Source: Bdellovibrionia bacterium (lineage in GTDB: Bacteria > Bdellovibrionota > UBA1018). From it: a DNA stretch of 21,084 nt. The notes under the pieces were generated by a model, which ran no database searches, was not told the origin of the DNA, and was given only the letters and a program-made list of their open reading frames with translations. Below are positions 260-16,806 of the stretch, one piece after another. Location: the NCBI GenBank assembly GCA_045805065.1, contig JBJMMA010000007.1, positions 1-21,084 on the forward strand, read 5' to 3'. How positions within the stretch are numbered: position 1 is the first letter of the stretch; every line of letters starts with the position of its first letter. The translations under genes were made by a program, and so were the position numbers.

Positions 260-1996
260 TTACTTGAGTTGGCTTTGCCAGCGAGAGCGCTCAGCGATCT
301 CCTGGCGAAGCTGCTCAAGCTCGCGGATACGATCTGCGACATCCTTACCCAGCTCGTCAGCCCAGATATGAGAAAGAGCTTCAGCCCAAGGAAGCCCGTG
401 ATCCGCGCGACTCGCATACAGTGGCACGCGCCTGAAATAAAAATCGCGAAGATGCATCGTCATCTCATAGCGAATGCAGAAACGAAGCTGCCCACCTAAA
501 TCCGGGAAACCCTCCGGCCAGGCGATCGCCGGAGCAGGATCTTTTTCGGAAAGCTCACGAACAACCCATGCGTTGGCGCCGTAGCGCTCCAGAAGCTCGC
601 GAGGAAGATCGATCTTCTTTGAAGCCGCCATGAGCTTTGCCTTGGCAATCGCCTCAGGCGTTGCATGCGGGTTCATAGGCTCGCGCGTGTTAGGGTTTTG
701 CAAAGAAGCTGGAGGCTGATCGTCTCTTTCGCGCTCAGCGTCCGCACTCCAACGCTCAAGTGTGAATTCCACGATCTCTTCTGCCATCTTTCGGTAGGTC
801 GTGTACTTACCGCCGGCCACGACCGTTGTGCGGCCCGGACCTACATCAATATGATGCTCGCGCGAAACCTTTTGAAGCTTTTCAATCGATGCATCATCCC
901 CACCGACCAGAGGCCTCACTCCCACATAAGCGCTGAGGATATCCGAAGCTTTAAGCTCCAGGTCTGGGAAATAGCGATTGAGAAGATCGAGAAGATAATC
1001 GACATCATCGCGCCCTACGTCTGCAAGCGAGGGCTCTGCCGGGGATGGTCCGTCCGTTGTTCCAACAACCACGACTCCGCTTCCAAAATCCGGGCGTGGA
1101 ATCACAAAAGAGATGCGTCCATCCACAGGATGACTCATCACCATCGCGCCTTGGATCGGAATGCGTTTCAGATCAAAGATCAGATGAACGCCTTTGCTTG
1201 GGCTCAGCCAAGTTTTCCAATCACGAGCCATGCGCTGCCCGAGCTCATCGGTCCAGGGGCCTGCGCAAACGATCGTACGATGAGCTTTAATTTCAAACTC
1301 CTCGCCTTTTGGATTCAAAGTGTCGCGAACCTTGAAACCTGAGATCTTGTCCCCTCGCGGTGATTTGGTCCAAAGCGGCGAGACCGCTTCGCAGTAGTTT
1401 GCGATCACTGCATCGCTTTGAGCTGCGGACCTCATGACCTCAACGACCATGACATCATCCCACATCGATGCATCATAATAGCTGAAGCCACCTTGAAGGC
1501 CCTGCTTCTTGAGAAACGGAATTTCTCTCAACATCCTTTTGCGCGAGAGACTCTTATGAAAACCGGGAGCGCGGAAAAGCGAAAGCAGGTCGTAAAGCCA
1601 CATTCCGCACATCAGGACGAAGCGTCCGTTGGCATCGCCTTGATAGACCGGAAAATAAAACTTCAGTGGCCGCACCATGTGCGGCGCGGTCTTGAGAAGA
1701 TTGGCGCGCTCTGAAAGAGCCTCGAAAACCAGGCCAAACTCGAAGTTCTCCAGGTAGCGCAAACCACCATGAATGAGCTTTGAGCTTCGCGAGGAAGTCC
1801 CGACAGCGAAGTCCGAGCGCTCGACCAGCGCCACCTTGAGCCCGCGTCTGGCGGCATCGCGCGCGACGCCTGCGCCCGTGATGCCTCCGCCGATCACCAG
1901 AAAATCAAACGTCTCCTCTTTCAGCCTGCGAAGATTGCGCTCGCGCACGCGATGAGAGAAATCCGTCTGCGTCTCTGTTTGAACCGGAAAAGTCAT
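260..1996 (-). CDS. glpD: FAD-dependent glycerol-3-phosphate dehydrogenase/oxidase
   Basis: FDFLVIGGGITGAGVARDAA FAD motif, GTSSRSSKLIHGGLRYLE, SKGVHL, GVRPL and GGKYTTYRKMAE are all GlpD signatures. Confidence 0.93.
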   Translation of the reverse strand: MTFPVQTETQTDFSHRVRERNLRRLKEETFDFLVIGGGITGAGVARDAARRGLKVALVERSDFAVGTSSRSSKLIHGGLRYLENFEFGLVFEALSERANLLKTAPHMVRPLKFYFPVYQGDANGRFVLMCGMWLYDLLSLFRAPGFHKSLSRKRMLREIPFLKKQGLQGGFSYYDASMWDDVMVVEVMRSAAQSDAVIANYCEAVSPLWTKSPRGDKISGFKVRDTLNPKGEEFEIKAHRTIVCAGPWTDELGQRMARDWKTWLSPSKGVHLIFDLKRIPIQGAMVMSHPVDGRISFVIPRPDFGSGVVVVGTTDGPSPAEPSLADVGRDDVDYLLDLLNRYFPDLELKASDILSAYVGVRPLVGGDDASIEKLQKVSREHHIDVGPGRTTVVAGGKYTTYRKMAEEIVEFTLERWSADAERERDDQPPASLQNPNTREPMNPHATPEAIAKAKLMAASKKIDLPRELLERYGANAWVVRELSEKDPAPAIAWPEGFPDLGGQLRFCIRYEMTMHLRDFYFRRVPLYASRADHGLPWAEALSHIWADELGKDVADRIRELEQLRQEIAERSRWQSQLK

Positions 1997-3840
1997 GTAC
2001 GCGTGGGTGGCTGACGAACTGAGATTCCAACTTCCACAAGCTGCTCAGGAGTGACGGTCGATGGCGTTTCGGCCATGAGATCCGTACCCTTCTGGGTTTT
2101 TGGAAATGCCATGACGTCGCGAATCGGACCAACACCGCAAAGAAGCGCGGTCAAGCGCTCGACGCCAAACGCGATCCCTCCATGCGGAGGAGTTCCATAT
2201 TGAAGCGCTTCGAGGAAAAATCCGAACTTCAGTTTTGCTTCCTCATCGGTGAGTCCCAGAACGCGGAACATCGCCGATTGAACATCCGGGCGGTAAATAC
2301 GAAGGCTTCCGCCCCCGATCTCCACGCCGTTCAAGACCATGTCGTACGCAGAAGCTTCGATTTGATCGAGGTTGCGGCTTTGAACAAAGTCTTCGAAATG
2401 TTCCGGACGGGGCGAAGTAAACGGGTGGTGACATGCATAGTAGCGGTTTTCCTTATCGTCGAATTCAAGAAGCGGAAAGTTCATGACCCAGAGGAACGCT
2501 GGTTTCCCCTCGCCCGGCTTTGGAATCATTCCCAAGCGCGCACCCACCATCAGGCGGAGCGCTCCGAGCGAGTCAAACACGATCTTGTCTTTTGGATCAG
2601 CCACAACCAGAACCAGATGCCCAGGTTGAAGTCCCAAGCGGGTTTTGAGGGCAGCTTTTTCATCTTCACTGAAGAACTTCGCAGCAGGCGACTGAAGCTC
2701 TCCTCCGGCCTGAACCTTGATCCAGAGCAAGCCCTTGGCGCCGTGAGTTGTGGCATGAGCTTGAAGATCATCAAGATCCTTGCGAGAGAATTTCTCAGCC
2801 TGCCCTTCCAGTACAATTGCACGAACTGAGCCGCGGCGGCCTCTTGCGTTCTTAGCAAGCGCGCCTTGAAAAACCTGAAACGTGCTTTTTTCAAAGACAT
2901 CGGAAATATCTTGAAGCTCAAGGCCAAAGCGGACATCGGGCTTATCACTTCCAAAGCGCGCCATCGCTTCGCGATACGGCATGCGTGGGAATGGGCGTGG
3001 AATGTCCTCGTTGAGAATCTCTTTCCAGAGCTTTGCGATCATCTCTTCAAGAATCGGGAAGAACTGCTCTTCGTTCAGGAAGGATTGCTCGATATCGATT
3101 TGAGTGAACTCAGGCTGACGGTCAGCGCGCAAGTCCTCATCGCGGAAGCAACGTGCGACTTGATAGTAGCGATCCATGCCCGAGATCATCAGGAGCTGCT
3201 TGAGCGTCTGTGGCGACTGCGGAAGCGCGTAGAAAGTTCCCGGATTGATGCGAGACGGGACAATGAAGTCACGCGCGCCTTCTGGCGTGGACTTGTAAAG
3301 AATCGGCGTCTCGACTTCACAGAAGCTGTGCTTGTCGAGGTGATTGCGAACGATCGAGAGCATGCGATGGCGAGTCAGAAGATTTTTCTGAAGCGATGGC
3401 CTGCGAAGATCGAGATAACGATATTTTAAACGAAGGGTCTCAGCGACATCCGCTTCATCGTCGATTGCAAACGGAGGAGTCTTGGCTTCAGACAAAATCA
3501 CAATGTCAGTGCATGCGACTTCGATCTCGCCTGTGGCCATCTTTGAATTGGCCATTCCTTGAGGGCGATTGCGAACCTTGCCTTTCACCCAAAGGACAAA
3601 TTCAGAACGAATCCTGCCTGCTGTCGTGTGAGCTTCCGCTCCTCCTGCCAATGCAGGGTCAAAAACGATTTGGGTCAGTCCATAGCGATCGCGCAAATCC
3701 GCGAAAACCAAACCCCCGTGGTCACGACGTTTCGAAACCCAACCACAGAGCATCACCTCTTGGCCAAGATTGGCTGCGCGAAGCTCGCCGCAAGTGTGAC
3801 TTCTATTTATCTGCTTGGTAGTTTGTACGGAGGTTTCCAT
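1993..3840 (-). CDS. aspS: Aspartate--tRNA(Asp/Asn) ligase, probably non-discriminating
   Basis: RSHTCGELR, RRDHGGLVFADLRD, RLKYRYLDLRR, STPEGARDF, YALPQSPQ, CFRDEDLRADRQPEFTQID and PPHGGIAFGVER. The stop codon overlaps the glpD start (ATGA). Confidence 0.97.
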   Translation of the reverse strand: METSVQTTKQINRSHTCGELRAANLGQEVMLCGWVSKRRDHGGLVFADLRDRYGLTQIVFDPALAGGAEAHTTAGRIRSEFVLWVKGKVRNRPQGMANSKMATGEIEVACTDIVILSEAKTPPFAIDDEADVAETLRLKYRYLDLRRPSLQKNLLTRHRMLSIVRNHLDKHSFCEVETPILYKSTPEGARDFIVPSRINPGTFYALPQSPQTLKQLLMISGMDRYYQVARCFRDEDLRADRQPEFTQIDIEQSFLNEEQFFPILEEMIAKLWKEILNEDIPRPFPRMPYREAMARFGSDKPDVRFGLELQDISDVFEKSTFQVFQGALAKNARGRRGSVRAIVLEGQAEKFSRKDLDDLQAHATTHGAKGLLWIKVQAGGELQSPAAKFFSEDEKAALKTRLGLQPGHLVLVVADPKDKIVFDSLGALRLMVGARLGMIPKPGEGKPAFLWVMNFPLLEFDDKENRYYACHHPFTSPRPEHFEDFVQSRNLDQIEASAYDMVLNGVEIGGGSLRIYRPDVQSAMFRVLGLTDEEAKLKFGFFLEALQYGTPPHGGIAFGVERLTALLCGVGPIRDVMAFPKTQKGTDLMAETPSTVTPEQLVEVGISVRQPPTRT

Positions 3841-3932
3841 TCCATCTAGTTAACATCCAGCATCAGAAAAAAGCAATTGTCGCGCGTTCAAAGATTCAGC
3901 AAATTCCACAGCTTTTCCGGGCATTCGCCTTT

Positions 3933-3948
3933 GGGTATATCGTTTGCT
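3933..3948 (+). promoter_or_regulatory. Putative sigma-54 (-24/-12) promoter for the PLD-ybhP pair
   Basis: GGGTATATCGTTTGCT has exact GG-N10-GC spacing and a TTGCT -12 box. The -24 box is imperfect. Confidence 0.4.
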
Positions 3949-3963
3949 TTCCTTTGATCCCGC

Positions 3964-6162
3964 TTGTCAACGCATCCGGCCCAATGGCCAAACCCTTTCA
4001 TTGATGACTCCGTGCAACAACCAGTAACGGCCCCGGCTCCATTGTCCCGGCGGTCCTATGGACAGCTTTCTGTTGCCACGAGCTGGGAAGAAATCTGGGA
4101 AGCGGGCAATTACTACGATCGCGTTGCAGAGCTTTTGGAAGACGCACGGCATTCGATTGTGCTCGTTGGCTGGCAGATTGACTCGCGGCTTCCAATGAAG
4201 CGCCCTCAACGCGTCACAGGACGCAACACGAACGCGCCATCGATCGAATCCCTCAAGCAGAAGATCGTTCGCCTCTGCGACTCAAAGCCTGACCTACAGG
4301 TCTATATTCTGATGTGGGACCATGCCTGGTTCTATGTCTATGAGCGAGAAGTCTGGCAGGGACGAGTCTGGGAAGATATTCATCCCCGGGTTCACTTTAT
4401 ATTTGATAGCCGCCACCCGCTTGGAGCCAGCCATCACGAAAAGCTTTGTCTGATCGATGGACGGATCGCTCTTTGCGGAGGCATTGATCTTTGTGATGAA
4501 CGCTGGGACACGCGAGCGCATCTTCATCACGACTCAAGACGCTCGCTCGATCTCAAAGAAGAGCATCATGGACCTTACCATGACCTGGCCGTTCAGGTCA
4601 GTGGCCCGATCTGCCTTGAGATCCATCGCCATATCGCCGAGAGGTGGGAACGGATTTCCAGCATTCCGTTTCCTCAGGAACCTAAGTTTCCTGAAAACGC
4701 CAGCGGGCACGCGGTTTACTTCAGCAGAACATTGGCTCGAATCGACATCGAGCGCGGCCAGCCTCATGTCGTTCGGGAAGTCGAGTTTCTCTATCGTGAT
4801 CTGATCGACCGGGCGCAGAAGCGACTGATTCTGGAGGGTCAATATTATTGGTCCTGTGAATTCAACGATCTATTGATCCGGAAGGTCCAGAAGATGCGCG
4901 GCCAGGATTTTGAGATCTTCCTGATTCTGGCTGATCTCCGAAAAACCAAATCACTAACGCGCGTGATGTCTCAATATGAGCTCAGGCTTCTGGATCGATT
5001 GGTTGTCGCCGCTCAGACTGCCGGTGTGCGCCTGACACTCGGGATGCCTTACAGCTATCCGTTGGAAAATGCTCAAGGGGAAAACTCTCAAGGCCCGGCT
5101 CGTCCAGTTTACGTGCATTCGAAAACCGTTATTGTGGATGATCACTATCTTTCCATCGGGTCCGCGAACTTTGCGGCTCGTGCGCTTCGACTCGATAGTG
5201 AAGTCAATCTCACGTTTGAGGCAAGAACCGAAGCAGAGAGAAGGCATATCCAGAACTTCGGCAATCGTCTCTTAGCTCACTGGCATACCGGCACGGTCGA
5301 GCTCAGGCCGATCAACCCTGCCCTGCTTCTTCATCATGGCCGCGGCTCGAATCGCTGGTTTGAGCCCCCCTCGCCAAATTTCACCTGGATCGCCTGGGAA
5401 AAGTTCTTTGATCCTGAGATCTCGCCTCTTTACCCTTTCAAGCGCTGGCTCAGGCGCTGGAACTCCGACCGCACACCAATACAAAGAGCGATCGGAAAAT
5501 TCGCGCTGACTTGTCTTGCGGCAGCCATCGTCCTGTTTTTCAGCGGAACCGGCCGCACACCCGACATGCAGATGCGCTCAGTTGCTTACGCTTTGCTTCT
5601 TTGCACATCCTGGGTTCTGCCCGTCCCGTTTCTACCGACCGCGCTCTTTTGCGCAGTGGATCTCTCTCACCTGGCGCGCCTCACGCGGAGTGATCTTGCG
5701 GCATCCATCAAAATTCCAATCATTTCCTTCTGGCTCGTCTCGCTTCTGGGATATTTTGCCGCGCGAATGTATCCCTCTCGGGCCGGCCTGCTGTACGGAA
5801 ACCTGAAGCAAAGCTCTCTGGCCAGATATTTAGGAAAGAGATTTTTTCCGTCTTTGCTCTTGGCCGTTTTTGATCCCGCAGTCCCTCTTCACTACAAAAT
5901 CATCTATGAAGGGATTTATTGCCTGCCGCTGGCATGGTTTGCGCTGGTCAATGGGTTGATCCTTCCGTCTGTTCTGTACGGACTCTTATCTGTTTGGAAC
6001 TGGGTCTGGTCCATTGCAGCATCACCTCAGCTGATTGAGCTGATGAGTGAACTTGCACTGCCGTGGATGATCATTATGTTTTTCATTGGAGCCGCGCGAC
6101 GTAGCAAAGTCGATATTCATCATGCAAAAAAAGCTGAAAATTCTGTCTTACAACATTCATAA
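3964..6162 (+). CDS. Phospholipase D family protein (two HKD motifs) fused to a C-terminal DedA/VTT-like membrane domain
   Basis: HHEKLCLIDGRIALCGGIDL and VHSKTVIVDDHYLSIGSANF. The last ~220 aa are hydrophobic. The start is uncertain (TTG 3964 or GTG 4012). Confidence 0.88.
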   Translation: MSTHPAQWPNPFIDDSVQQPVTAPAPLSRRSYGQLSVATSWEEIWEAGNYYDRVAELLEDARHSIVLVGWQIDSRLPMKRPQRVTGRNTNAPSIESLKQKIVRLCDSKPDLQVYILMWDHAWFYVYEREVWQGRVWEDIHPRVHFIFDSRHPLGASHHEKLCLIDGRIALCGGIDLCDERWDTRAHLHHDSRRSLDLKEEHHGPYHDLAVQVSGPICLEIHRHIAERWERISSIPFPQEPKFPENASGHAVYFSRTLARIDIERGQPHVVREVEFLYRDLIDRAQKRLILEGQYYWSCEFNDLLIRKVQKMRGQDFEIFLILADLRKTKSLTRVMSQYELRLLDRLVVAAQTAGVRLTLGMPYSYPLENAQGENSQGPARPVYVHSKTVIVDDHYLSIGSANFAARALRLDSEVNLTFEARTEAERRHIQNFGNRLLAHWHTGTVELRPINPALLLHHGRGSNRWFEPPSPNFTWIAWEKFFDPEISPLYPFKRWLRRWNSDRTPIQRAIGKFALTCLAAAIVLFFSGTGRTPDMQMRSVAYALLLCTSWVLPVPFLPTALFCAVDLSHLARLTRSDLAASIKIPIISFWLVSLLGYFAARMYPSRAGLLYGNLKQSSLARYLGKRFFPSLLLAVFDPAVPLHYKIIYEGIYCLPLAWFALVNGLILPSVLYGLLSVWNWVWSIAASPQLIELMSELALPWMIIMFFIGAARRSKVDIHHAKKAENSVLQHS

Positions 6163-6907
6163 AGGATTCAGCACGTACAACCGCCGTTTCGTGCTGACCA
6201 GAATCCGTGACGCTCTCAGAGAGATTCACCCGGATCTGGTATTTTTGCAGGAGGTCCTCGGCGAGCATCAACTCTACCGGCACCGCGTACTGGACTGGCC
6301 CGAGCAGTCCCAGTTTGAGTATCTGGCTGATGAACTCTGGCCGCATTATGCGTACGGAAAAAACGCGGTTTATTCGTCCGGCCATCACGGCAACGCGATT
6401 TTGAGCAAATATCCGATTACACATTGGGATAATATTGATGTCTCGACCAGCGCCATGGAAAGACGAGGAATTTTGCACGCGGTGCTCGATGTTCCCGCAT
6501 CGCTTGTGGGAGAAAGCAGTCGAAAGCCCGTTCCTCTTCATGCCATCTGCGTTCATCTCGGTCTTTTGGAAGCAGATCGAACCAAACAGATTCAACAACT
6601 GGTGAACCGGATCGACTCTCATGTGCCGCATGACGAGCCGCTCGTGATCTGTGGCGACTTTAACGACTGGCGGCTTCGCGCGAGCCGGCCCCTTCGTCAC
6701 CAGCTGGAAGTCACCGAAGCGTTCTATACGCTCACCGGCAATCATGCGCGTACGTTTCCAAGCTGGATGCCCGCGTTAAGACTCGATCGAGTCTATTTCC
6801 GTGGCATGCACGCTAAAAGTGCAAAATGCCTCACAGGAAAGCCCTGGAGTGAGCTCTCCGATCACACTGCCCTTTTAGTGGAGCTCGATCGGCCGAAGCT
6901 GGCTTAA
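6122..6907 (+). CDS. Endonuclease/exonuclease/phosphatase family protein, YbhP-like
   Basis: LSYNIHKG, LQEV, HHGNAILS, VHLGL, GDFNDW, LDRVY and LSDH. ATG 6122 is preferred over the track start at 6086. It overlaps the 3' end of the PLD gene by 41 nt. Confidence 0.92.
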   Translation: MQKKLKILSYNIHKGFSTYNRRFVLTRIRDALREIHPDLVFLQEVLGEHQLYRHRVLDWPEQSQFEYLADELWPHYAYGKNAVYSSGHHGNAILSKYPITHWDNIDVSTSAMERRGILHAVLDVPASLVGESSRKPVPLHAICVHLGLLEADRTKQIQQLVNRIDSHVPHDEPLVICGDFNDWRLRASRPLRHQLEVTEAFYTLTGNHARTFPSWMPALRLDRVYFRGMHAKSAKCLTGKPWSELSDHTALLVELDRPKLA

Positions 6908-8884: not shown

Positions 8885-11884
8885 TCACGGCGAAGGCTCT
8901 GAGGCAAGGTTCTTTTTCAACATGTTATAAATACAGCCGCGAATGGAGAATGCGGGCCCCTTGCCCTGTTCTGCCCGCTCTATTCCCGTTTTCAATCTCT
9001 GATAAGTCGGAACCAACCCTCCAGTCAGTTTTCTTAACTCAGGATGGTCCTTCCAGTGGGGCAAAGAGAAAACCTCGTTATCGATGCGCTTTACGGATTC
9101 CAAAACATTTTCACTTCCGTCCGATTCGATTGCTTTGATCAACAAAGGAATGAACTCAGGGTGATTTTTTGCGTGAGGCTGAGATAAAGTGTAATGAGCG
9201 ACCAGGCTCCAAAGACCTCGCTTGCTCCAAGTACCTCGCTTCTTCAGCACTTTTTCAATGAACTCAGGCTGATCCATCCACTGAGGTTCGGAAAGAATCT
9301 GGTGCCCAAATAGGTCATATAAGCTCCAATTCCCTGTACTTGGAGAGCGATAAAGGGAATTAAACACCTCTGCATCGTCCAAGACCATGAATGCCCAATC
9401 CTGACGATAGTTCCAATGAGGTTGAGTTAGAACATATTGCGTGATCGCAAGACTGGCCGCCCCTTTTTTAATTAATGACTCGACGAACTCTGGATGATCC
9501 TTCCAATGCGGCTGAGCCAAAACATATTTGGCAATTGCGGGAGAGAGATTGTTGCGGAAGTCCCAAGACTCCAGTTTATCAATCAGTTTGCTCACAAATT
9601 CAGGATGATCCTTCCAATGAGGCTTAGAAAGAGCAAAGCGCGCGATTTCCTCATCCGCGCTCCCTCTTTTTAGGAGAGTCTCCACCCACTCGGGATGGTC
9701 TTTGGAAAACGGTTGGGACAAAACATATGCAGCGATATATGGATCGACTGTTCCCTTTTTTAAAAGGCTTTCCACAATGAAACGGGACTGAGGAGTCTCA
9801 TGAGGCTGGCCAATCACACCTCCAAAGAGAGTCCTTCTTACGTTGACGTCAACACCCTCCTTTGCGGCTAACTCAATGACCCACTCCGGATGATCTTTCC
9901 AATGCGGTTGAGTCAAAACATACTTCGCAAGCTCCACGTCCGCATTGCCCTCGTTCAAAATGGTCCTGACCCATTCGGGATGCTCTTTTGTATCAGGTTG
10001 AGATAAAATCCGCTTTGCAATATCAGGATGGAGTTGTGAATATCGTATCGCGCTTCGAATCCAATCCGGATGCTTCTGAATAATGGGATGACTCACAATA
10101 TAGCGGGCCACCCGCTCATCACGCTGCTGATCCCTGACGAACCTAGCCCCCCATTCTTCGACCCACTCGTCCTGTTTCAACCAATGCGGTAAGCTCAGAA
10201 TTCGCTCTGCGATCCAGCCGTCCTCAATTCCCTTGCTCCTTAAAAGATGAATCATGTCTGGATAGTTTTCAGACCCAGGCAAGGCGCTCCACTCGGCTAG
10301 TAACCGAGAACTCATGATGTCGACACCTGAAGCATTTTTGATTTTAGTTTGAACGACTTCAAAGATCTCATTCAACTGCCGCTCATCCAAGGCCAGCATC
10401 TTATTCCCGATCCGCCTTTTGAATTTTTCGATGATGCCCCGATCACCGAACCCAAACCCAAAGCTATCGCCAGCCAGAATTCGGAAGTATTCGACCGGGC
10501 CAATGCTTAGACTTTCAGGAATGACTCTCAAAGCAGCTTTGTTTTTGACAACAACGTAATCATGCTCCTTGAGATAATCAAAATCAGCGCCCTGTCGTGC
10601 ATCAGGATCCAAGTGAAAGCGGATCGTCAAACCCGTGCCTCGAGCTCCTTCTCGACCTACGCGGGCGTAAAAACCGTTTCCATAAGCAGCCACTTCTCCC
10701 GGATTATTTTTCCGAGATATTAAGACATTGGGGTCACCCGTATGAGCTTTGGTGATACTCTCATAAGCTAAAAAGTTGTTGGTCTCATGTGCGACAACGT
10801 CAATCCCAAGCTCTTGAGCAGTCTTTCTAAATCCTTTTCCAAGAGGCTTGGTTCGTAGAGGTTCTTTGTTCATCCACCAGGCTAAGGAATCCGTGTCGCC
10901 TGCATTGTCATTGATCCGGATGAGCTTCTGTCTCAAACCCAAGCCTTCGAGCGTATCCCAGGCGTATTCGATATTAACGGCATTCTGAATCAGCTTCTTT
11001 CCATTCTTTTCGATCCAGTTTGCGACATATGAGTTTTTAGTGCCTTTTTGGGGGTTAAAACCATCAATCACTTTCTTAAGATGCTTAAGATCTTCGGGCC
11101 TAATCTCCAGCTCGTACTGAAAAGCCTTGGTGAGAAATCGGATCACAGAAAGGATCGGAGGATTTCTGCCCTCTTTGGCAAACTTGGTCGATCCATGACT
11201 TGGAGAAAAATAGTAGTGAAGCATTCCATCGTGAACGTCTTTCAGGAAGAAAGGCTCTTTGGAATTCCAGTCCCTCACATCTCTGACAACGGACTCCCCT
11301 GCTTGTGGCTTTGTGATTTCGATGAGACCTGTGGAGTTTGAGTCGGAATGTTGGTTGAGAAAGTCTGGGTTTTTCAGAATTGCAAGCTTATCGCCCATGT
11401 CTTGCGTAAGGAGTCTCACTTCCCACGCGGTCTTTGAGCCTTGAAGGTGCGGATACTTTTCCTGCAGCGCCGTTTGAAGTTTTTGCGCTTGATCAGCGTT
11501 TCCATCAATCACGATGTCCAAGTCTTGAGTGGAGCGATAGATATTGGTGTAGTCGTAATCAAAACGATCTTGTTGAAAACGCGTATCGCCCTTCTCGCGC
11601 TGCATGTCCCATTTTACGTAATGCGCATAGCCCGCAGCCGTCCCCCCAAAGAGCCAGGCTCGCACTCCAAGCTTTGCAGCCTCTTGCTCGATAAATCGAA
11701 ACTCTTCGACTCGCTTGAGTCGATCTGCGATCCCTTGCTCAAGATCTTGAAGAGAAGGAGTTTGGGTCGAATGGGCTATTTCAGACGTTGCCGCAAGCGA
11801 CAGCTGTGGCATCCAACATGCCTGCGACGTAGCAAGCAGCATCATCGAAACAATCATCTGAAATAGACTCAACCGATTTCGCAT
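8885..11884 (-). CDS. Putative secreted NTase-like + ART-like + helical-repeat protein (paralogue A, 999 aa)
   Basis: Hydrophobic N-terminus ending SLA-A. WLFGG...DLD (D121/D123)...WEV, then AHET (H366)...YGNGFY (Y406)...DYVVV, ~13 repeats, and the tail FSIRGCIYNML. Confidence 0.85.
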   Translation of the reverse strand: MRNRLSLFQMIVSMMLLATSQACWMPQLSLAATSEIAHSTQTPSLQDLEQGIADRLKRVEEFRFIEQEAAKLGVRAWLFGGTAAGYAHYVKWDMQREKGDTRFQQDRFDYDYTNIYRSTQDLDIVIDGNADQAQKLQTALQEKYPHLQGSKTAWEVRLLTQDMGDKLAILKNPDFLNQHSDSNSTGLIEITKPQAGESVVRDVRDWNSKEPFFLKDVHDGMLHYYFSPSHGSTKFAKEGRNPPILSVIRFLTKAFQYELEIRPEDLKHLKKVIDGFNPQKGTKNSYVANWIEKNGKKLIQNAVNIEYAWDTLEGLGLRQKLIRINDNAGDTDSLAWWMNKEPLRTKPLGKGFRKTAQELGIDVVAHETNNFLAYESITKAHTGDPNVLISRKNNPGEVAAYGNGFYARVGREGARGTGLTIRFHLDPDARQGADFDYLKEHDYVVVKNKAALRVIPESLSIGPVEYFRILAGDSFGFGFGDRGIIEKFKRRIGNKMLALDERQLNEIFEVVQTKIKNASGVDIMSSRLLAEWSALPGSENYPDMIHLLRSKGIEDGWIAERILSLPHWLKQDEWVEEWGARFVRDQQRDERVARYIVSHPIIQKHPDWIRSAIRYSQLHPDIAKRILSQPDTKEHPEWVRTILNEGNADVELAKYVLTQPHWKDHPEWVIELAAKEGVDVNVRRTLFGGVIGQPHETPQSRFIVESLLKKGTVDPYIAAYVLSQPFSKDHPEWVETLLKRGSADEEIARFALSKPHWKDHPEFVSKLIDKLESWDFRNNLSPAIAKYVLAQPHWKDHPEFVESLIKKGAASLAITQYVLTQPHWNYRQDWAFMVLDDAEVFNSLYRSPSTGNWSLYDLFGHQILSEPQWMDQPEFIEKVLKKRGTWSKRGLWSLVAHYTLSQPHAKNHPEFIPLLIKAIESDGSENVLESVKRIDNEVFSLPHWKDHPELRKLTGGLVPTYQRLKTGIERAEQGKGPAFSIRGCIYNMLKKNLASEPSP
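9035..10291 (-). repeat. ~13 protein-level repeats, ~30-aa core, paralogue A
   Basis: For example LSQPDTKEHPEWVRTILNEGNADVELAKYV, LSQPFSKDHPEWVETLLKRGSADEEIARFA and LAQPHWKDHPEFVESLIKKGAASLAITQYV. Confidence 0.9.
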
Positions 11885-11894
11885 TCCTGAGCCT

Positions 11895-13901
11895 CTATGG
11901 TTTTACGTCCATTTGTTGAAGGTGCCCGATCATACATGGCCCAGCACCTAAAGTGCTACTCAAAGTCTCGCCACGTGCGAAGGCTTGGGCTAGTTTTTCT
12001 GCCGTAGGCTTTTCTCCGCCAGTCAGCTTGAGAAGCGAAGGATGCTCTTTCCAATGAGCCTTGGAAAGCGCAAGGGCTTGGACATAATACTGCGAGTTTC
12101 CGGCCTTGTTTTTGAGAATGTACTCAATCAGCTCGGGATGGACCTTCCATTCGGGTCTATTGAGAACGCTCGTTATCACTGCTTGAACGTCGTGATCTCC
12201 GGGACTCTTGTCCAAAATCGCTTTTACGATCTCGGGATGATCCAATGAGATCGGCATATCAAACCATTCGGAAAGAACGGGGATCATGCCCGTTTTCTTG
12301 CTCCACATATCGCCGACTTCAATGGAAACCGATGGCGCGCGATCAACGCTTTCTTTGATCGTGTTTAAAATCTTGTCCACCTGATCTTTTGACCAGGTCT
12401 TGGATTTAGCAGCGATCTTTCTCTTCACTTTATCAAGCATGCTGCGAGTGCCATTATCTAGCTTACGCTGATGCCGAGCAAGAGACTGAAAGTACTCAAC
12501 AGGATCGCCGTTGACACTCTCTGGGATCACGTGGATGGCGGCCTTGTTGTGGATAATCACGTAGTTTTTTTCAAGAACTCGGGTAAAGTCCTCGCCTTCG
12601 CGAGCGTTGGGATCTAAGCGAAACTTGATATTCAGTCCCCCGTTTCGATCGCCCTGTTCGCCGACTTTGGTGTAGAAACCTTCGCCGTATTTCGCAGCTT
12701 CGTCCACGGCACTATCGCGGGAACTCAGAACGTTTGCATCACCCATCAATGAGCTTGTGATGATTTCATAAGCCTGGATGCTATTCGTCTCATGAGCGAG
12801 GGTATCCAGACCAAGCTCTCGCGCTGTTTTTCCGGTCCCTTTGCCAACAGGTTTCGCGCGAAGTGGTTCTTTAGTTAACCACCAAGCCAAAGATTCGGGT
12901 TGGTACACATTGCCGGGGATGGCTTGAAGCTTTTTCTTGAGCCCAAGTTTTTCCAAAGTATCCGACACCAACTCGATATTGGTTGCGTGCTGAAAGAGCT
13001 TCCGTCCATTGTATTCCACCGCATGAGAGGCGTACTGTGTTTGAAGATCTTTCGCGGGATTGAACTCTTCGACTACTTTTTTGATTTGAGCAAGATCCTG
13101 GGGCGGGATCTGCAGATCATATTGAAAGGCCTTAGTCAGATAACGGATGACCGATAAGATCGGCGGGTTTCGTCCATCTTTTGCAAACTGTGTTGTCGAG
13201 TGAAGCGGAGAAAAATAATAGTGAACGACGCCATCATGGACATCTTTTAAGAAAGCAGGTTCTTTCGCGTTCCATTCTCGAACATCCCTGACAACGCCTT
13301 CGCCTGCTTTTGACTTCGTAATTTCAATCATGCCGACGGAGCTTGAATCCGTGTGCTGATTCATGAAATCAGGGTTATTTAAAATAGCGAATTTCTCTCC
13401 CTTGTTTTGGGCGAGAAGGCGCACCTCCCATGCACTCTTATCACCTTGGCGATGTGGATATTTCAGTTCGAGCATGCGTTGCAGCTGTTCTGCCTGCTCG
13501 GGACTGCCATCAATCACAACGTCCAAGTCTTGCGTAGAGCGATAAATGCTTGTGTAGTCGTAATCAAAACGGCCTTTTTGAATGCGCGAATCGCCACTTT
13601 CACGCTGCATATCCCATTTCACATAATGCGCGTAGGCTGAGGCAGTACCACCAAAGAGCCAGGCTCGCACGCCAAGCTTTGCAGCCTCTTGTTCAATAAA
13701 ACGAAACTCTTCGACTCGCTTGAGTCGATCCGAAATTCCATGCTCAAGCTCTTGAAGCGTTGATGCTTTGATAGATTGAGTATTTACCGTACTGCCAGAG
13801 GGCGTAGCCCATGCACGGTTTGAAATCCCTGCGGCCTGGAACACTACTGTAAGCGCGATCCAAGCGGTCACTTGAAAAACGACATGAAATGGCGTCTTCA
13901 T
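11895..13901 (-). CDS. Putative secreted NTase-like + ART-like protein (paralogue B, 668 aa, 3 repeats)
   Basis: Signal peptide ending AWA-T. WLFGG...DLDVVID, AHET...YGEGFY...NYVII, and the tail GAGPCMIGHL. The start overlaps the stop of paralogue C (ATGA). Confidence 0.85.
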   Translation of the reverse strand: MKTPFHVVFQVTAWIALTVVFQAAGISNRAWATPSGSTVNTQSIKASTLQELEHGISDRLKRVEEFRFIEQEAAKLGVRAWLFGGTASAYAHYVKWDMQRESGDSRIQKGRFDYDYTSIYRSTQDLDVVIDGSPEQAEQLQRMLELKYPHRQGDKSAWEVRLLAQNKGEKFAILNNPDFMNQHTDSSSVGMIEITKSKAGEGVVRDVREWNAKEPAFLKDVHDGVVHYYFSPLHSTTQFAKDGRNPPILSVIRYLTKAFQYDLQIPPQDLAQIKKVVEEFNPAKDLQTQYASHAVEYNGRKLFQHATNIELVSDTLEKLGLKKKLQAIPGNVYQPESLAWWLTKEPLRAKPVGKGTGKTARELGLDTLAHETNSIQAYEIITSSLMGDANVLSSRDSAVDEAAKYGEGFYTKVGEQGDRNGGLNIKFRLDPNAREGEDFTRVLEKNYVIIHNKAAIHVIPESVNGDPVEYFQSLARHQRKLDNGTRSMLDKVKRKIAAKSKTWSKDQVDKILNTIKESVDRAPSVSIEVGDMWSKKTGMIPVLSEWFDMPISLDHPEIVKAILDKSPGDHDVQAVITSVLNRPEWKVHPELIEYILKNKAGNSQYYVQALALSKAHWKEHPSLLKLTGGEKPTAEKLAQAFARGETLSSTLGAGPCMIGHLQQMDVKP

Positions 13902-16753
13902 TCGTTTGCCTCCACAGCCAGCCGTTTATTGAGCATGTTGTAGATACAACCACGAATCGAGAAAGCAGGCCCCCTGCCTTGCTCCGCGCGCTTCATCCCT
14001 ACTTTCAGATTTTTATAAGTGGGCGGAAGCCCTCCCGTTAGCCGTCGAAGCTCGGGATGATCCATCCAGTGAGGTTGAGAAAGAACCTTCTTATTGAAGT
14101 ACTCAATCTGGTCGCTATCAAGGGGGCGTTTCATGAGCTGGATGACAAACTCTGAATGATCCTTCCATTGCGGAAGAGAAACCAGGTCCATGCCAGACCG
14201 GCCCATTGACCTATTGAGGATAATTTCAACGAACTCGGGGTGATCTTTCCAAAGCGGTTTTGAAAGTACATCGGCCGCGACTAGATCCATTACGTGAGTG
14301 GTTTTTACGAACCGCTCAAGGAGCTCGGGATGTGCGGCCCATTGCTTCTGCGAAAAAACATTCCTGATCAGCTGAACATCAACTTTCCAATTTCGTTTAT
14401 TCATCAGGCTTTTGATAAACTCAGGATGCTCTATCCAATGGGGTTGAGATAAAACTACTGTTCCCAAAACATCAGCAGCGCGATCAACCTCAGCTCCATA
14501 AAGCTCCGGATGCGTGATCACATCCATCACCAAACGCTCCATTACCGGCCACTGAGTTTTCCAGTGAGGCATGGAAAACACGTATTTGATCAAACGCATC
14601 CGCGCATTAAAGTCTCTTATCGAAAACCGCTCCAACCATTCCGGATGATTCGCTGACTCAGGTTGCGTCAGAATGCTTGTCATGATCGTTTCGTCAACCT
14701 TCCCACGCGCCATCAGAAGATCTATCCACTCGGGATGTGCCTTTATAGTGTCAGGCTGAACGAGAATGAATCTGCTGATCTCCTCATCTGCCGTTCCTCT
14801 TTTCAAAAGGTCATCAACCCAGCCTGGTCGGTCCTTCCAATGAGGCTGAGAGAGAACGTCTCGTGCGAGAACTCTATCGATGTCTCCATGACCGAGTAAA
14901 AGATCCACCCACTCTGGATGTGCTTTAGCTTCCGGTTTTGAAAGAACACGGGATGCGATCGCAACACGAACGTCTTTGACTTTTCTATGGAGAAGCTCAG
15001 AGATCCATCGCGACCATTGCGGAAGCTCGAGCCAGCGCGATTGACTAAGTACTGATTCCACCAGGAAAGAATCCGCAGTACCATGCTTAACGACCCAGTC
15101 TACGATCTCAGGCCATCGAGAAGACTGAGGCGAATCAAACCAAGCCTTTAAAACAGCGGAACGCTTTAAATCTTGCGAGTTAATGATTTCGTTTTTGACG
15201 ATTTTTAATATTTCTTGAATCTCACTTTCACTCGCGGCCGAAAGCTTGGCGCCGATTCGTCGCTTTAATTTTTCTAGAATCCCAAGATCGCTGTGATCAA
15301 TGGCCGCTTGATCCTGTGCAAGCATTTCAAAATACTCGACTGGCCCGACATTCAGACTTTCAGGAATGACCTTGAGCGCGGCTTTATTTCGGACAATGAT
15401 AAAATTAGCGTCACTTTCTCTGATAAAATCGACGTTCTCTCGAGCCTCCGGATTCAAATGAAAGCGGATGGTCAGTCCCGTGCCGCGCGCCCCTTCCTTT
15501 CCTATCTTTGTGTAAAAACCATTGCCATAGTGTGCCGCCTCGCCAACCGCGTCATTACGCGAGATCAAAACATTGGGATCACCAGTATGAGCACGCGTGA
15601 TGCTCTCATAAGCCAAAAAACTGTTTGTCTCGTGAGCAACAATATCGAGGCCAAGCTCTCTGGCAGTCTTTCCAAAACCTTTTGCTAACGCTCGGGTCCG
15701 CAAAGGCTCTTTGTTCATCCACCAAGCCAAGGTCTCGACTGTGTTGGGATCGTCTTTGATCGCGATCAGCTTTTTTCGAAGGCCGAGCTCTTCAAGCGTG
15801 TCCCAGGCATATTCAATATTGACCGCGTTCTGGATGAGCTTCTTTCCATTCTTTTCGATCCAATTCGATACATAAGAGTTTTCCGTGTCTTTCTTTGGAT
15901 CGAACTCCGCGATCACTTTTTTTATGCTCTTAAGTTCCTCAGGCCTGACCTCGAGTTCGTATTGGAAAGCCTTGGTGAGATAACGGATTACGGACAGTAT
16001 CGGAGGATTACGACCTTCTTTAGCGAACTTGGTCGATTTATGATTTGAAGAAAAGTAATAGTGAAGCTTTCCTTCGTGTACGTCTTTAAGAAAGAATGGC
16101 TCTCTCGAGTTCCAGTCTCTGACGTCTCGTACGACAGAATCCCCTGCTTTTGGCTTTGTAATTTCAATCAGCCCTGTGGAATTTGAGTCGGTATGCTGAT
16201 TGAGAAAATCCGGGTTATTTAAGATCGCAAGCTTATCGCCCATGTCTTGAGTGAGCAGACGCACTTCCCAGGCAGTCTTGGAGCCCTGCAGATGCGGATA
16301 TCTTTCTTGGAGCGTCGCCTGGAGCTTTTGTGCCTGGGACGCATCACCATCAATGACGATATCGAGATCTTGCGTGGAGCGATAGATATTGGTGTAGTCG
16401 TAATCAAAGCGATCCTTCTGAAACCTTGGATCACCCTTCTCACGCTGCATGTCCCACTTTACGTAATGGGCATAGCCTGCAGCTGTTCCACCAAAGAGCC
16501 AGGCTCGCACGCCAAGCTTTGCGGCCTCCTGCTCAATGAAGCGAAACTCGTCGACTCTTTTCAGCCGATCCGCGATTCCATGTTCAAACTCTTGAAGCGT
16601 CGGAGATTTGACAGTTTGAGAGGCTGTATCTTTTTCAAATGGCGCAGCAAAGGTCGCACAAGGCACCCAAAGTGCCTGCGGCGCCACCAAAAGCGCAATC
16701 AAAACAACGGCGTGAGAAATACCCCCCAAACGAGTCCTCATCCATGGACTCAT
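13898..16753 (-). CDS. Putative secreted NTase-like + ART-like + helical-repeat protein (paralogue C, 951 aa)
   Basis: Signal peptide ending TFA-A. WLFGG...DLDIVID, AHET...YGNGFY...NFIIV, ~12 repeats, and the tail FSIRGCIYNML. The start could be ATG 16753 or ATG 16741. Confidence 0.85.
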   Translation of the reverse strand: MSPWMRTRLGGISHAVVLIALLVAPQALWVPCATFAAPFEKDTASQTVKSPTLQEFEHGIADRLKRVDEFRFIEQEAAKLGVRAWLFGGTAAGYAHYVKWDMQREKGDPRFQKDRFDYDYTNIYRSTQDLDIVIDGDASQAQKLQATLQERYPHLQGSKTAWEVRLLTQDMGDKLAILNNPDFLNQHTDSNSTGLIEITKPKAGDSVVRDVRDWNSREPFFLKDVHEGKLHYYFSSNHKSTKFAKEGRNPPILSVIRYLTKAFQYELEVRPEELKSIKKVIAEFDPKKDTENSYVSNWIEKNGKKLIQNAVNIEYAWDTLEELGLRKKLIAIKDDPNTVETLAWWMNKEPLRTRALAKGFGKTARELGLDIVAHETNSFLAYESITRAHTGDPNVLISRNDAVGEAAHYGNGFYTKIGKEGARGTGLTIRFHLNPEARENVDFIRESDANFIIVRNKAALKVIPESLNVGPVEYFEMLAQDQAAIDHSDLGILEKLKRRIGAKLSAASESEIQEILKIVKNEIINSQDLKRSAVLKAWFDSPQSSRWPEIVDWVVKHGTADSFLVESVLSQSRWLELPQWSRWISELLHRKVKDVRVAIASRVLSKPEAKAHPEWVDLLLGHGDIDRVLARDVLSQPHWKDRPGWVDDLLKRGTADEEISRFILVQPDTIKAHPEWIDLLMARGKVDETIMTSILTQPESANHPEWLERFSIRDFNARMRLIKYVFSMPHWKTQWPVMERLVMDVITHPELYGAEVDRAADVLGTVVLSQPHWIEHPEFIKSLMNKRNWKVDVQLIRNVFSQKQWAAHPELLERFVKTTHVMDLVAADVLSKPLWKDHPEFVEIILNRSMGRSGMDLVSLPQWKDHSEFVIQLMKRPLDSDQIEYFNKKVLSQPHWMDHPELRRLTGGLPPTYKNLKVGMKRAEQGRGPAFSIRGCIYNMLNKRLAVEANE
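14048..15142 (-). repeat. ~12 protein-level repeats, ~30-aa core, paralogue C
   Basis: For example LSKPEAKAHPEWVDLLLGHGDIDRVLARDV and LSQPHWKDRPGWVDDLLKRGTADEEISRFI. Confidence 0.9.
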
Positions 16754-16783
16754 CGGAGCTTTTTAGAAAAAGAATTACTGTGG

Positions 16784-16806
16784 AACCGGTTAAAATTTAA
16801 CCGGTT
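16784..16806. repeat. Perfect inverted repeat (11-1-11), possible operator or RNA hairpin
   Basis: AACCGGTTAAA-A-TTTAACCGGTT. It overlaps the csbD stop codon and lies 30 nt upstream of paralogue C. Confidence 0.8.

What the first reader, a model, noticed from the sequence alone, without database searches (positions are those of the whole stretch)
8885..16753. Tandem trio of exported NTase + ADP-ribosyltransferase + repeat proteins: candidate undescribed effector system
Seen: three co-oriented, tightly coupled paralogues (ATGA overlap at 13898-13901, 10-nt gap at 11885-11894). They have divergent signal peptides, a highly conserved ~420-aa core, variable repeat arrays and related C-terminal caps. 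No small immunity ORF lies between them. Established: class II NTases use NTPs and RNA 3' ends and ARTs use NAD+, so both need cytoplasmic substrates. Inference: exporting such enzymes makes most sense if they are delivered into another cell (prey, host or competitor), and export would also remove the need for an antitoxin. I do not recognise this architecture from any described system. It may be a dual-warhead effector acting on RNA, translation or nucleotide pools.
Basis: partly seen in the sequence, partly recalled or inferred. Interest (0 to 1): 0.9.

Follow-up and report, generated by a model that had tools for sequence, protein, structure and literature searches.

The report
Exported NTase–ART repeat proteins of a predator
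Three neighbouring genes in a soil Bdellovibrionota genome belong to a large, undescribed family of exported proteins that join a CCA-enzyme-like nucleotidyltransferase to a diphtheria-toxin/PARP-like ADP-ribosyltransferase, probably weapons sent into other cells.

Summary
Three co-oriented minus-strand genes (951, 668 and 999 aa) are paralogues, joined by an ATGA overlap and a 10-nt spacer, with no ORF between them. Each has a signal-peptide-like N-terminus, a conserved ~470-aa core, a variable array of 30-aa helical repeats and a C-terminal cap.

The trio is not a three-part system. It is three of 27 paralogous ORFs in this 4.2-Mb genome, from a family of 655 clusters found patchily in Bdellovibrionota.

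New here: a conserved C-terminal Cys motif, which other signal-peptide-bearing proteins of this genome also carry, including a protein kinase.

Most likely these are Sec-exported effector enzymes acting in another cell. Target, chemistry and delivery are untested.

The parts
13898..16753 (-). Gene 1 (P0001, 951 aa): signal peptide, NTase, ART, helical linker, about 11 repeats of 30 aa, Cys-tagged cap
   Evidence: ORF and translation. The public protein collection holds it from the second Met as 947 aa.
16643..16753 (-). Signal-peptide-like N-terminus of gene 1 (aa 1-37: MRTRL, AVVLIALLVA, TFA|AP)
   Evidence: Sequence and a crude n/h/c rule. Not run through SignalP.
15749..16618 (-). Gene 1 NTase head and neck (aa 46-335). 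G88-G89, D129-x-D131, R165, D189, D210, D224, H238 and K261 are >=97% conserved.
15314..15748 (-). Gene 1 ART-like domain (aa 336-480). H374, S398-R399, E405, Y414, R430 and D442 are >=97% conserved; E465 is 90-97% conserved.
14048..15118 (-). Gene 1 array of 30-aa repeats, consensus V..LL.rG.aD..ia..VLSQPHWKDHPEW (aa 546-902)
   Evidence: Repeat parsing. The ESM Atlas model resembles HEAT/ARM/LRV solenoids, TM 0.5-0.6.
13901..13966 (-). Gene 1 C-terminal Cys tag (C936, RGCIYNMLNKRL...). It is the only Cys beyond the signal peptide.
13898..13901 (-). ATGA: the stop of gene 1 overlaps the start of gene 2
11895..13901 (-). Gene 2 (P0002, 668 aa): same plan with about 3 repeats; core at 12366-13781; Cys tag C656 at 11898-11954
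11885..11894 (-). 10-nt spacer AGGCTCAGGA (contains AGGA) between gene 2 and gene 3
8885..11884 (-). Gene 3 (P0003, 999 aa): same plan with about 11 repeats; core at 10358-11773; Cys tag C984 at 8888-8953

Best explanation
The three genes encode members of a large paralogous family of Sec-exported, multi-domain enzymes found in Bdellovibrionota.

Each protein has, in order:
- a cleavable signal peptide;
- a Pol-beta-type nucleotidyltransferase built like the head and neck of class II CCA-adding enzymes;
- a diphtheria-toxin/PARP-like (H-Y-E) ADP-ribosyltransferase domain, packed against the NTase where CCA enzymes carry their tRNA-binding body;
- a helical linker;
- a variable alpha-solenoid of 30-aa repeats;
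- a short C-terminal motif with a single conserved Cys.

Inferred mechanism: the proteins leave the cytoplasm by Sec and probably cross the outer membrane through a secretin-type route. They then reach a compartment that contains NTPs and NAD+, namely the cytoplasm of a prey bacterium or another target cell. There the two catalytic domains modify a macromolecule chosen by the variable solenoid. The likeliest targets are an RNA or tRNA end or a translation factor.

Export replaces an immunity protein. Many diverged copies give a repertoire of target specificities.

Shown: the gene structure, the paralogy, the folds, the conserved catalytic-type residues, purifying selection, and the taxonomic range and copy number. 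Inferred: signal-peptide cleavage, secretion, delivery, the substrates and toxicity.
For: Folds:
- The core model has pLDDT 93.3 and pTM 0.91.

Catalytic-type residues:
- In 236 homologues G88, G89, D129, D131, D189, H374, S398, R399 and Y414 are >=97% conserved, and E465 is 90-97% conserved.
- H374 lies on the first strand of the ART model, Y414 on the third, and E465 follows a later strand.

Selection: dN/dS is ~0.04 in the NTase part and ~0.08 in the ART part, with dS saturated.

Export:
- 19 of 19 complete paralogues have signal-peptide-like N-termini, against 24.9% of other ORFs.
- The genome has 4 secretin genes, and no T6SS sheath gene was found at 94% completeness.

No immunity or partner gene: nothing lies between the genes, and no neighbour recurs across 17 loci.

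Expansion and range:
- 27 ORFs make up 1.48% of the genome, in arrays of 2-4.
- There are 655 clusters at 50% identity.
- 19 of 301 Bdellovibrionota genomes and 18 of 170 genera hold a match. High candidate counts occur only in G000, in G263 of the same genus and in G027.
- Named relatives are Bacteriovoracaceae and other Bdellovibrionota MAGs.

Other ATP-using enzymes of this genome carry a signal peptide plus the same C-terminal Cys motif: a Pkinase-domain protein, and at a weaker tag score a circularly permuted ATP-grasp protein. A shared exported-effector class would explain this.
Against: - No experiment or expression data exist. No RNA run holds the sequence.
- No sequence method links either domain to a named family.
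- Signal peptides were judged by a crude rule that also flags a quarter of all ORFs.
- How a Sec-exported protein would cross a prey inner membrane is unknown, and no delivery machine is linked to these genes.
- Some distant relatives have lost the NTase motifs or lack the ART. The two activities therefore need not work together.
- That this MAG is predatory is assumed from its lineage name and has not been shown.
Confidence: 0.55

Rival explanations
1. The proteins are anti-eukaryote toxins. The architecture and export are as above, but the targets are protists or other eukaryotes, either grazers or hosts. The diphtheria-toxin-like ART would act on a eukaryotic factor and the solenoid would bind a eukaryotic protein.
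For: Diphtheria toxin and its homologues, and the PARPs, are the top ART matches. The sequence reads G-F-Y-[ST] around Y414, which I recall as typical of the diphtheria toxin/exotoxin A group; that is recall, not a test. HEAT/ARM-like solenoids are common in effectors aimed at eukaryotes. The tail is a Cys followed by an amphipathic basic helix, which loosely recalls eukaryotic membrane-targeting tails. The runs that hold the sequence are labelled soil metagenome.
Confidence: 0.15
2. The proteins are envelope or periplasmic enzymes of the predator itself. The N-terminus exports or anchors them, and they modify the producer's or the prey's cell-envelope polymers with nucleotide-activated donors, as NTase-fold phosphotransferases of the LicD/fukutin type do. 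In this reading the ART-like domain binds the substrate.
For: The proteins are extracytoplasmic by their N-termini. There is a faint LicD hit in P0002, E 0.13, which does not pass the cut-off. No immunity gene is needed.
Against: The best structural matches are RNA-end NTases and not LicD. Nucleotide donors and NAD+ are not known to be available in the periplasm. The ART H, Y and E residues are conserved as in active enzymes. Twenty or more diverged copies with variable solenoids fit target diversification poorly with a housekeeping envelope role.
Confidence: 0.15
3. The proteins are cytoplasmic RNA-end repair or defence enzymes, with a CCA-like NTase and a Tpt1-like NAD+-dependent phosphotransferase. 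In this reading the 'signal peptides' are miscalled starts or membrane anchors.
Against: The hydrophobic N-termini with AxA sites are kept in 19 of 19 complete paralogues although their sequences diverge to 22-35% identity. No PADLOC or PHROGs match was found. No phage match was found by tblastn. The genome has its own canonical PolyA_pol-family gene, which is unrelated at the sequence level.
Confidence: 0.07
4. The proteins are non-catalytic binding or adhesion proteins in which the enzyme-like core serves only as a scaffold.
For: A long variable solenoid dominates many members. One distant relative has lost GG and DxD.
Against: Within the main family the catalytic-type residues of both domains are >=90-97% conserved and dN/dS is 0.04-0.08.
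Confidence: 0.05

Closest known systems
Class II CCA-, CC- and A-adding enzymes and bacterial poly(A) polymerase (Pfam PolyA_pol)
   Different: There is no sequence match to PF01743, and hhalign against the genome's own PolyA_pol gene gives 0.4% probability. About 39 residues separate GG from DxD. The tRNA-binding body and tail are replaced by an ART domain. The proteins carry a signal peptide.
H-Y-E ADP-ribosyltransferases (diphtheria toxin group, PARPs, Tpt1)
   Same: The fold is shared, and a conserved His, Tyr and Glu sit on successive strands.
MenT/AbiEii nucleotidyltransferase toxins
   Same: They are a functional analogy. They are NTase-fold toxins that block growth by adding nucleotides to tRNA acceptor ends; I saw this only in the abstracts listed (PMC7450476, PMC10435456, PMC11541572).
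   Different: MenT toxins are cytoplasmic and are paired with antitoxins. I recall them as DUF1814-type. They have no ART, no signal peptide and no repeats. Relatedness was not tested here.
Legionella SidE-family effectors (recalled, not looked up here)
   Same: They are a precedent for one secreted effector joining an ART domain to a second nucleotide-processing domain, with the two acting in sequence on one substrate.
   Different: From recall, SidE proteins have an R-S-E-type ART and a phosphodiesterase rather than an NTase, are delivered by a type IV system without a Sec signal, and act on ubiquitin in eukaryotic hosts.
Phage anti-Gabija protein Gad2 (PF26128)
   Same: Gad2 clusters are the nearest by language-model features at 0.87. 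Gad2 is a ~400-aa protein predicted by AlphaFold2 to hold an NTase domain; one tested version was toxic in bacteria and its mechanism is unknown (passages read in 10.1101/2023.05.01.538930).
   Different: A score under 0.9 is only a lead. PF26128 is not in the local Pfam copy. No phage match was found by tblastn or PHROGs. The viral fold library returned only phage tRNA nucleotidyltransferases at E ~1e-3.

Membership tests
Class II nucleotidyltransferases (CCA-adding / poly(A) polymerase, PF01743) | Pol-beta NTase head plus helical neck fold | tested here: met
Class II nucleotidyltransferases (CCA-adding / poly(A) polymerase, PF01743) | G[GS] turn and DxD catalytic carboxylates | tested here: met
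   G88, G89, D129 and D131 are >=97% conserved in 236 sequences. They sit after strand 1 and on strand 2 of the model. The spacing is unusually long, about 39 residues.
Class II nucleotidyltransferases (CCA-adding / poly(A) polymerase, PF01743) | Match to the family's sequence model | tested here: not met
   No PF01743 hit at E<=1. The family search of the whole genome finds only one other locus. hhalign against that gene gives probability 0.4%.
Class II nucleotidyltransferases (CCA-adding / poly(A) polymerase, PF01743) | Helical body and tail domains that hold tRNA | tested here: not met
   Residues 336-480 form a beta-rich ART-like domain instead.
ADP-ribosyltransferase superfamily, H-Y-E clade | ART fold | tested here: inconclusive
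ADP-ribosyltransferase superfamily, H-Y-E clade | His, Tyr and Glu on strands 1, 3 and 5 | tested here: met
   H374 and Y414 are >=97% conserved and E465 is 90-97% conserved. Strand positions come from the model. Their clustering in space was not checked, because no coordinates were available to me.
ADP-ribosyltransferase superfamily, H-Y-E clade | Match to a sequence model of a named ART family | tested here: not met
   No hit in Pfam or NCBIfam at E<=1. The PDB profile search gave nothing below E 0.1.
ADP-ribosyltransferase superfamily, H-Y-E clade | NAD+ binding and ADP-ribose transfer | not testable with these tools
   Needs biochemistry.
Sec (SPase I) signal peptide | Basic n-region, hydrophobic h-region and an AxA-type site | tested here: met
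   Seen in all three proteins. 19 of 19 complete paralogues pass a crude rule, against 24.9% of other ORFs. No trained predictor was run.
Polymorphic toxin / toxin-immunity systems | Cognate immunity gene next to the toxin | tested here: not met
   There is no ORF between the genes. No recurrent neighbour appears among 123 flanking ORFs at 17 loci.
Gad2 (PF26128) | Match to the family model | tested here: inconclusive
   Only an Atlas feature score of 0.87. The model is not in the local library.
HEAT/ARM-type alpha-solenoid | Stacked helical hairpin repeats | tested here: inconclusive
   30-aa period. The Atlas model (whole-protein pLDDT 0.65) aligns to LRV, HEAT and ARM clusters at TM 0.5-0.6. 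The three proteins have no Pfam repeat hit. HEAT_2 hits occur in some homologues.
Exosortase / MYXO-CTERM-type sorting tags | Signature motif followed by a transmembrane helix and a basic cluster | tested here: not met
   Only 4-16 residues, mostly amphipathic, follow the Cys. No NCBIfam tag model matches.

The most novel reading that the evidence does not exclude
The family, together with the C-terminal Cys motif, may mark a previously unrecognised effector class of Bdellovibrionota.

In this reading, Sec-exported enzymes that depend on ATP or NAD+ (NTase-ART fusions, a protein kinase, perhaps an ATP-grasp enzyme) share a C-terminal 'Cys plus amphipathic helix' signal. That signal would couple them to a carrier or route into the cytoplasm of the attacked cell, for example through a reducible disulfide.

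Inside the target, the NTase and the ART, held rigidly together, would act in sequence on one substrate. One possibility is ADP-ribosylation of an RNA or protein end followed by nucleotide addition, or the reverse order. That chemistry has not been described for any toxin. The variable solenoids would set the target range.
Probability: 0.2. Interest if true: 0.9.

Novelty: new variant of a known kind. Interest (0 to 1): 0.72.

Why it matters
How predatory Bdellovibrionota disable prey from outside the prey cytoplasm is largely unknown, and few of their effectors have a defined chemistry.

This family is large: 655 clusters at 50% identity, and up to roughly 30-40 candidate copies per genome. 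It is under strong selection and has no entry in the family libraries searched here. It joins two nucleotide-using catalytic folds, each of which alone underlies potent toxins.

If the proteins are delivered, they would give a testable handle on prey killing. They might also reveal a new two-step modification and a new C-terminal delivery signal.

The arrangement of a conserved enzyme core with a variable solenoid also offers a natural set of targeting modules for study.

Tried and rejected
Searches that found nothing:
- Sequence searches for a named family found nothing usable. Pfam and NCBIfam were run at E<=1, PHROGs and PADLOC at E<=1. A PDB profile search gave a best E of 0.12, unrelated. 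tblastn against 50,697 phage records gave no match at E<=1.
- hhalign of the family profile against the genome's own PolyA_pol gene gave probability 0.4%.
- hhalign against four other Cys-tagged proteins gave probabilities <=2.7%.
- The Pfam domains precomputed for some homologues (RasGEF, Ank, PTS_EIIA, DUF4116) turned out to be short stretches that do not pass on their own. I reject them as evidence for eukaryote-like domains. Of 36 long homologues scanned, 32 had no Pfam family at E<=1e-4.
- The search for short proteins carrying the ART part gave 30 hits. They appear to be mostly fragments on short contigs, and none carries a named ART domain.
- The viral fold library gave only phage and giant-virus tRNA nucleotidyltransferases at E>=1.4e-3 and no two-domain match.

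Leads and signals that could not be settled:
- Gad2 could not be tested because PF26128 is not in the local library.
- Expression: no RNA holder is listed. Five DNA runs from two studies, labelled soil metagenome, hold 0.09-0.33 of the sampled words.
- The promoter and terminator scan was no better than shuffles: 3 promoter-like sites against a mean of 7.3, and 14 terminator-like sites against 9.4.
- GC content: the family averages 49.4% against 52.5% (sd 1.9) for other long ORFs. This is too small a difference to argue for recent transfer.

Readings rejected for the tail:
- A lipobox or twin-arginine signal: the sequences do not fit.
- A CaaX box: the Cys lies 4-16 residues from the end.

Not done or not available:
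- No complex prediction was run, because no binding claim is made.
- The earlier-findings tool was not open.
Full report
**1. What is there**

The window carries three minus-strand ORFs at 13898-16753 (P0001, 951 aa), 11895-13901 (P0002, 668 aa) and 8885-11884 (P0003, 999 aa).

The stop of the first overlaps the start of the second in ATGA. A 10-nt spacer, AGGCTCAGGA, separates the second from the third. Nothing is encoded between them.

The flanking genes are ordinary. On one side lie a GlpD-like oxidoreductase, aspartyl-tRNA synthetase, a PLD-like protein, an EEP-family protein, a response regulator and fumarase C. On the other side lie a CsbD-like protein, an M74-like peptidase, an APH-type kinase, a metallophosphoesterase and a BON-domain protein.

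The three proteins align over their whole length, at 54% and 59% identity to the first. Identity differs sharply by segment:

| Segment | Pairwise amino-acid identity |
|---|---|
| NTase part | 70-86% |
| ART part | 56-68% |
| Signal region | 22-35% |
| Repeats | 24-36% |
| Cap (genes 1 and 3) | 73% |

Synonymous sites are saturated, while dN/dS is about 0.04 in the NTase part and 0.08 in the ART part. These are old duplicates kept by selection.

**2. Export signals**

All three proteins begin with M + K/R, a hydrophobic run of 15-20 residues and an AxA-like site.

In the whole genome, 19 of 19 paralogues complete at both ends pass a crude rule of mine for such N-termini. The rate is 24.9% for other ORFs of 150 aa or more. 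The rule is permissive and no trained predictor was available. The pattern is nevertheless kept while the sequence drifts, which fits a real Sec signal.

The sequences fit neither a lipobox nor a twin-arginine motif.

**3. Folds**

AlphaFold2, run on a 40-sequence alignment, models residues 42-518 of P0001 with mean pLDDT 93.3 and pTM 0.91.

*NTase part*
- Foldseek against the PDB gives 13 matches at E<=0.001. All are class II CCA-, CC- or A-adding enzymes. The best is 3h3a_B at E 1.3e-4, with TM up to 0.44 by target.

*ART part*
- Foldseek gives no significant match for this domain.

**4. Conserved residues**

I examined 236 family sequences.
- In the NTase part, G88, G89, D129, D131, R165, D189, S190, S192, D210, D224, H238 and K261 are >=97% conserved. 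This is the GG turn and the DxD strand of Pol-beta NTases, with about 39 residues between them.
- In the second domain, H374, E383, N394, S398, R399, E405, Y414, R430, D442 and N456 are >=97% conserved, and E465 is 90-97% conserved.
- In the model, H374 ends the first strand, Y414 lies on the third, and E465 follows a later strand. This is the H-Y-E layout.
- The local sequence G-F-Y-T around Y414 resembles what I recall from diphtheria toxin and exotoxin A. That is recall, not a test.

**5. No named family**

- Pfam, NCBIfam, PHROGs and PADLOC give nothing usable at E<=1.
- A profile search of PDB sequences gives nothing below E 0.1.
- The genome has one canonical PolyA_pol gene. The family profile does not align to it.
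- The proteins therefore work like, but are not sequence members of, the CCA/PAP family or any named ART family.

**6. The C-terminal half**

A 30-aa unit with consensus V..LL.rG.aD..ia..VLSQPHWKDHPEW repeats about 11, 3 and 11 times in the three proteins.

Across 235 homologues, 93 have two or more such anchors, and 162 of the spacings counted are exactly 30. The least conserved positions are 9, 12, 13, 16 and 17 of the unit.

The ESM Atlas model of this part aligns to LRV, HEAT and ARM solenoids at TM 0.5-0.6. Many homologues carry other, unannotated C-terminal regions: 32 of 36 long ones have no Pfam family at all.

**7. A family, not a trio**

- The core is found in 27 ORFs of this 4.22-Mb, 94%-complete genome, making up 1.48% of its bases.
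- They occur in arrays of 4 (C247), 3 (C7, C188) and 2 (C176, C213, C222), and as single genes.
- In 8 of the 17 contigs a family ORF runs off the contig end, so the count is approximate.
- No neighbouring gene recurs among 123 flanking ORFs.
- Public collections hold 533 hits among 8000 scored candidates. Nearly all of the 120 listed are unnamed or called 'hypothetical protein'.
- An exhaustive search finds 655 clusters at 50% identity, 472 of them at E<=1e-30.
- In named genomes, 25 of 27 related loci lie in MAGs titled Bacteriovoracaceae, Bdellovibrionota, Pseudobdellovibrionaceae or Bdellovibrionales. The other 2 are in 'Proteobacteria bacterium SG_bin7'.
- Within the phylum the family is patchy. 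It is found in 19 of 301 genomes, 18 of 170 genera and 4 of 34 genomes of the same family. High candidate counts occur only in G000 (32), a genome of the same genus (41) and one distant genome (35).
- Phyla other than this one were not sampled systematically.

**8. Modularity**

- A 1146-aa protein of G103 has the NTase part with GG and DxD but no ART.
- A 624-aa protein of G286 aligns throughout but has lost GG and DxD, while it keeps the His, the S-R and the G-x-G-Y-Y-T of the ART.
- A 612-aa protein of G142 has only the neck and the ART.
- The two activities can therefore be separated in evolution, which weakens any claim that they must act together.

**9. The C-terminal Cys motif (new here)**

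- Of 235 family proteins, 202 have their last Cys 3-20 residues from the end, most often 8-11.
- Cys makes up only 0.22% of residues beyond position 45. For 91 of those 202 proteins it is the only Cys there.
- The consensus is [SGAT]-C-[VIL]-x-x-[LF]-L-[KR]-x-L-L-[KR].
- In the window the Cys residues are C936, C656 and C984.
- I built a position matrix from 180 tails of other genomes and scored the ORFs of this genome. Twenty score 6 bits or more, 12 of them family members, against 1.8 expected from internal windows.
- Of the 8 non-family ORFs, 7 have signal-peptide-like N-termini, against a 24.9% background (Fisher p 3.8e-4).
- One of these is a Pkinase-domain protein of 383 aa. A circularly permuted ATP-grasp protein scores just below the line at 5.9.
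- No transmembrane helix follows the Cys, so the motif is not an exosortase- or MYXO-CTERM-type tag. It is not a CaaX box either.
- I read it as a candidate sorting, tethering or delivery signal shared by exported ATP-using enzymes. This rests on one genome and a home-made matrix.

**10. Mechanism**

Shown: exported-looking proteins with two intact-looking nucleotide-using active sites, a variable binding module, no immunity gene, strong purifying selection, and lineage-specific expansion in a phylum of bacterial predators.

Inferred: the proteins pass Sec and a secretin-type outer-membrane route. The genome has 4 secretin genes, and no T6SS sheath gene was found. They then reach a compartment with NTPs and NAD+, most simply the cytoplasm of an attacked cell, and there they modify RNA ends or translation components.

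The rivals are eukaryotic targets, an envelope role, a cytoplasmic RNA-repair or defence role, and a non-catalytic role. They are listed with their odds in the rival explanations.

**11. Literature**

Seven full-text searches returned no paper describing an exported NTase-ART family in Bdellovibrionota. I read passages of three papers:
- PMC9503650 and PMC8120803 mention no such fusion in the passages found.
- 10.1101/2023.05.01.538930 and PMC13670838 describe Gad2 as a ~400-aa predicted NTase of unknown mechanism.

Supplements were not read. Subscription journals are not covered, so prior description cannot be excluded.

**12. Verdict**

The effector role is plausible but untested, and the 'trio as a system' reading is replaced by 'three members of a large expanded family'.

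I rate it a new variant of a known kind: secreted enzymatic effectors built from known folds in an undescribed architecture. Interest is 0.72.

Noticed in passing
window 13901-13966, 11898-11954, 8888-8953; also L041-L048 (G000 contigs C247, C180, C38, C51, C82, C12, C78, C183): A conserved C-terminal motif, [SGAT]-C-[VIL]xx[LF]L[KR]xLL[KR], sits 4-16 residues from the end in 202 of 235 family proteins, and is often the only Cys. The same motif occurs in 8 non-family ORFs of this genome, 7 of which have signal-peptide-like N-termini. It may be a new sorting or delivery tag.
   Followed up: partly
L046 (G000:C12:18138-19289, minus strand) and L049 (G000:C126:8157-9878): A 383-aa Pkinase-domain protein (E 1.3e-17) and a 573-aa circularly permuted ATP-grasp protein (E 3.8e-36) both have signal-peptide-like N-termini and a C-terminal Cys tail, with tag scores of 7.4 and 5.9. 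They are further ATP-using enzymes that look exported.
   Followed up: partly
L041 (G000:C247:37120-39234, minus strand): A 704-aa ORF with a signal-like N-terminus and the best non-family tag score (13.1) lies directly upstream of the four-gene family array on contig C247. It has no Pfam hit and no detectable similarity to the core.
   Followed up: partly
L038 (G286:C8, ORF 1710-3584, minus strand); L037 (G103:C27, ORF 1497-4937); L039 (G142:C52, ORF 1371-3209, minus strand): Distant relatives show modular loss. One has a degenerate NTase (GG and DxD lost) with the ART motifs kept, one has the NTase without an ART, and one has only the neck and ART.
   Followed up: partly
protein P0191 (2327 aa, from the public collection): One homologue carries AAA+/ClpB-like and M41 peptidase domains before the core and an FGE-sulfatase domain after it. 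FGE-sulfatase is also precomputed for two other listed homologues, P0106 and P0120. Whether P0191 is a true fusion or a gene-calling artefact was not checked.
   Followed up: no
G000 contigs C9, C134, C148, C171, C188, C213, C214, C222: In 8 of the 17 contigs that hold the family, a family ORF runs off the contig end. The paralogues probably break the assembly, and the copy number of 27 is approximate.
   Followed up: no
window about 16775-16800, minus strand: A perfect palindrome, AACCGGTTAA...TTAACCGGTT, spans the stop of the CsbD-like gene just upstream of gene 1, followed by a T-rich stretch. It may be a terminator that sets the trio apart as its own transcription unit. The consensus scan did not list it.
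   Followed up: no
window 3964-6162 and 6086-6907, plus strand: A 732-aa PLD-motif protein and a 273-aa endonuclease/exonuclease/phosphatase-family protein overlap by 77 nt as listed, upstream of the response regulator and fumarase. Whether these hydrolases are exported was not examined.
   Followed up: no
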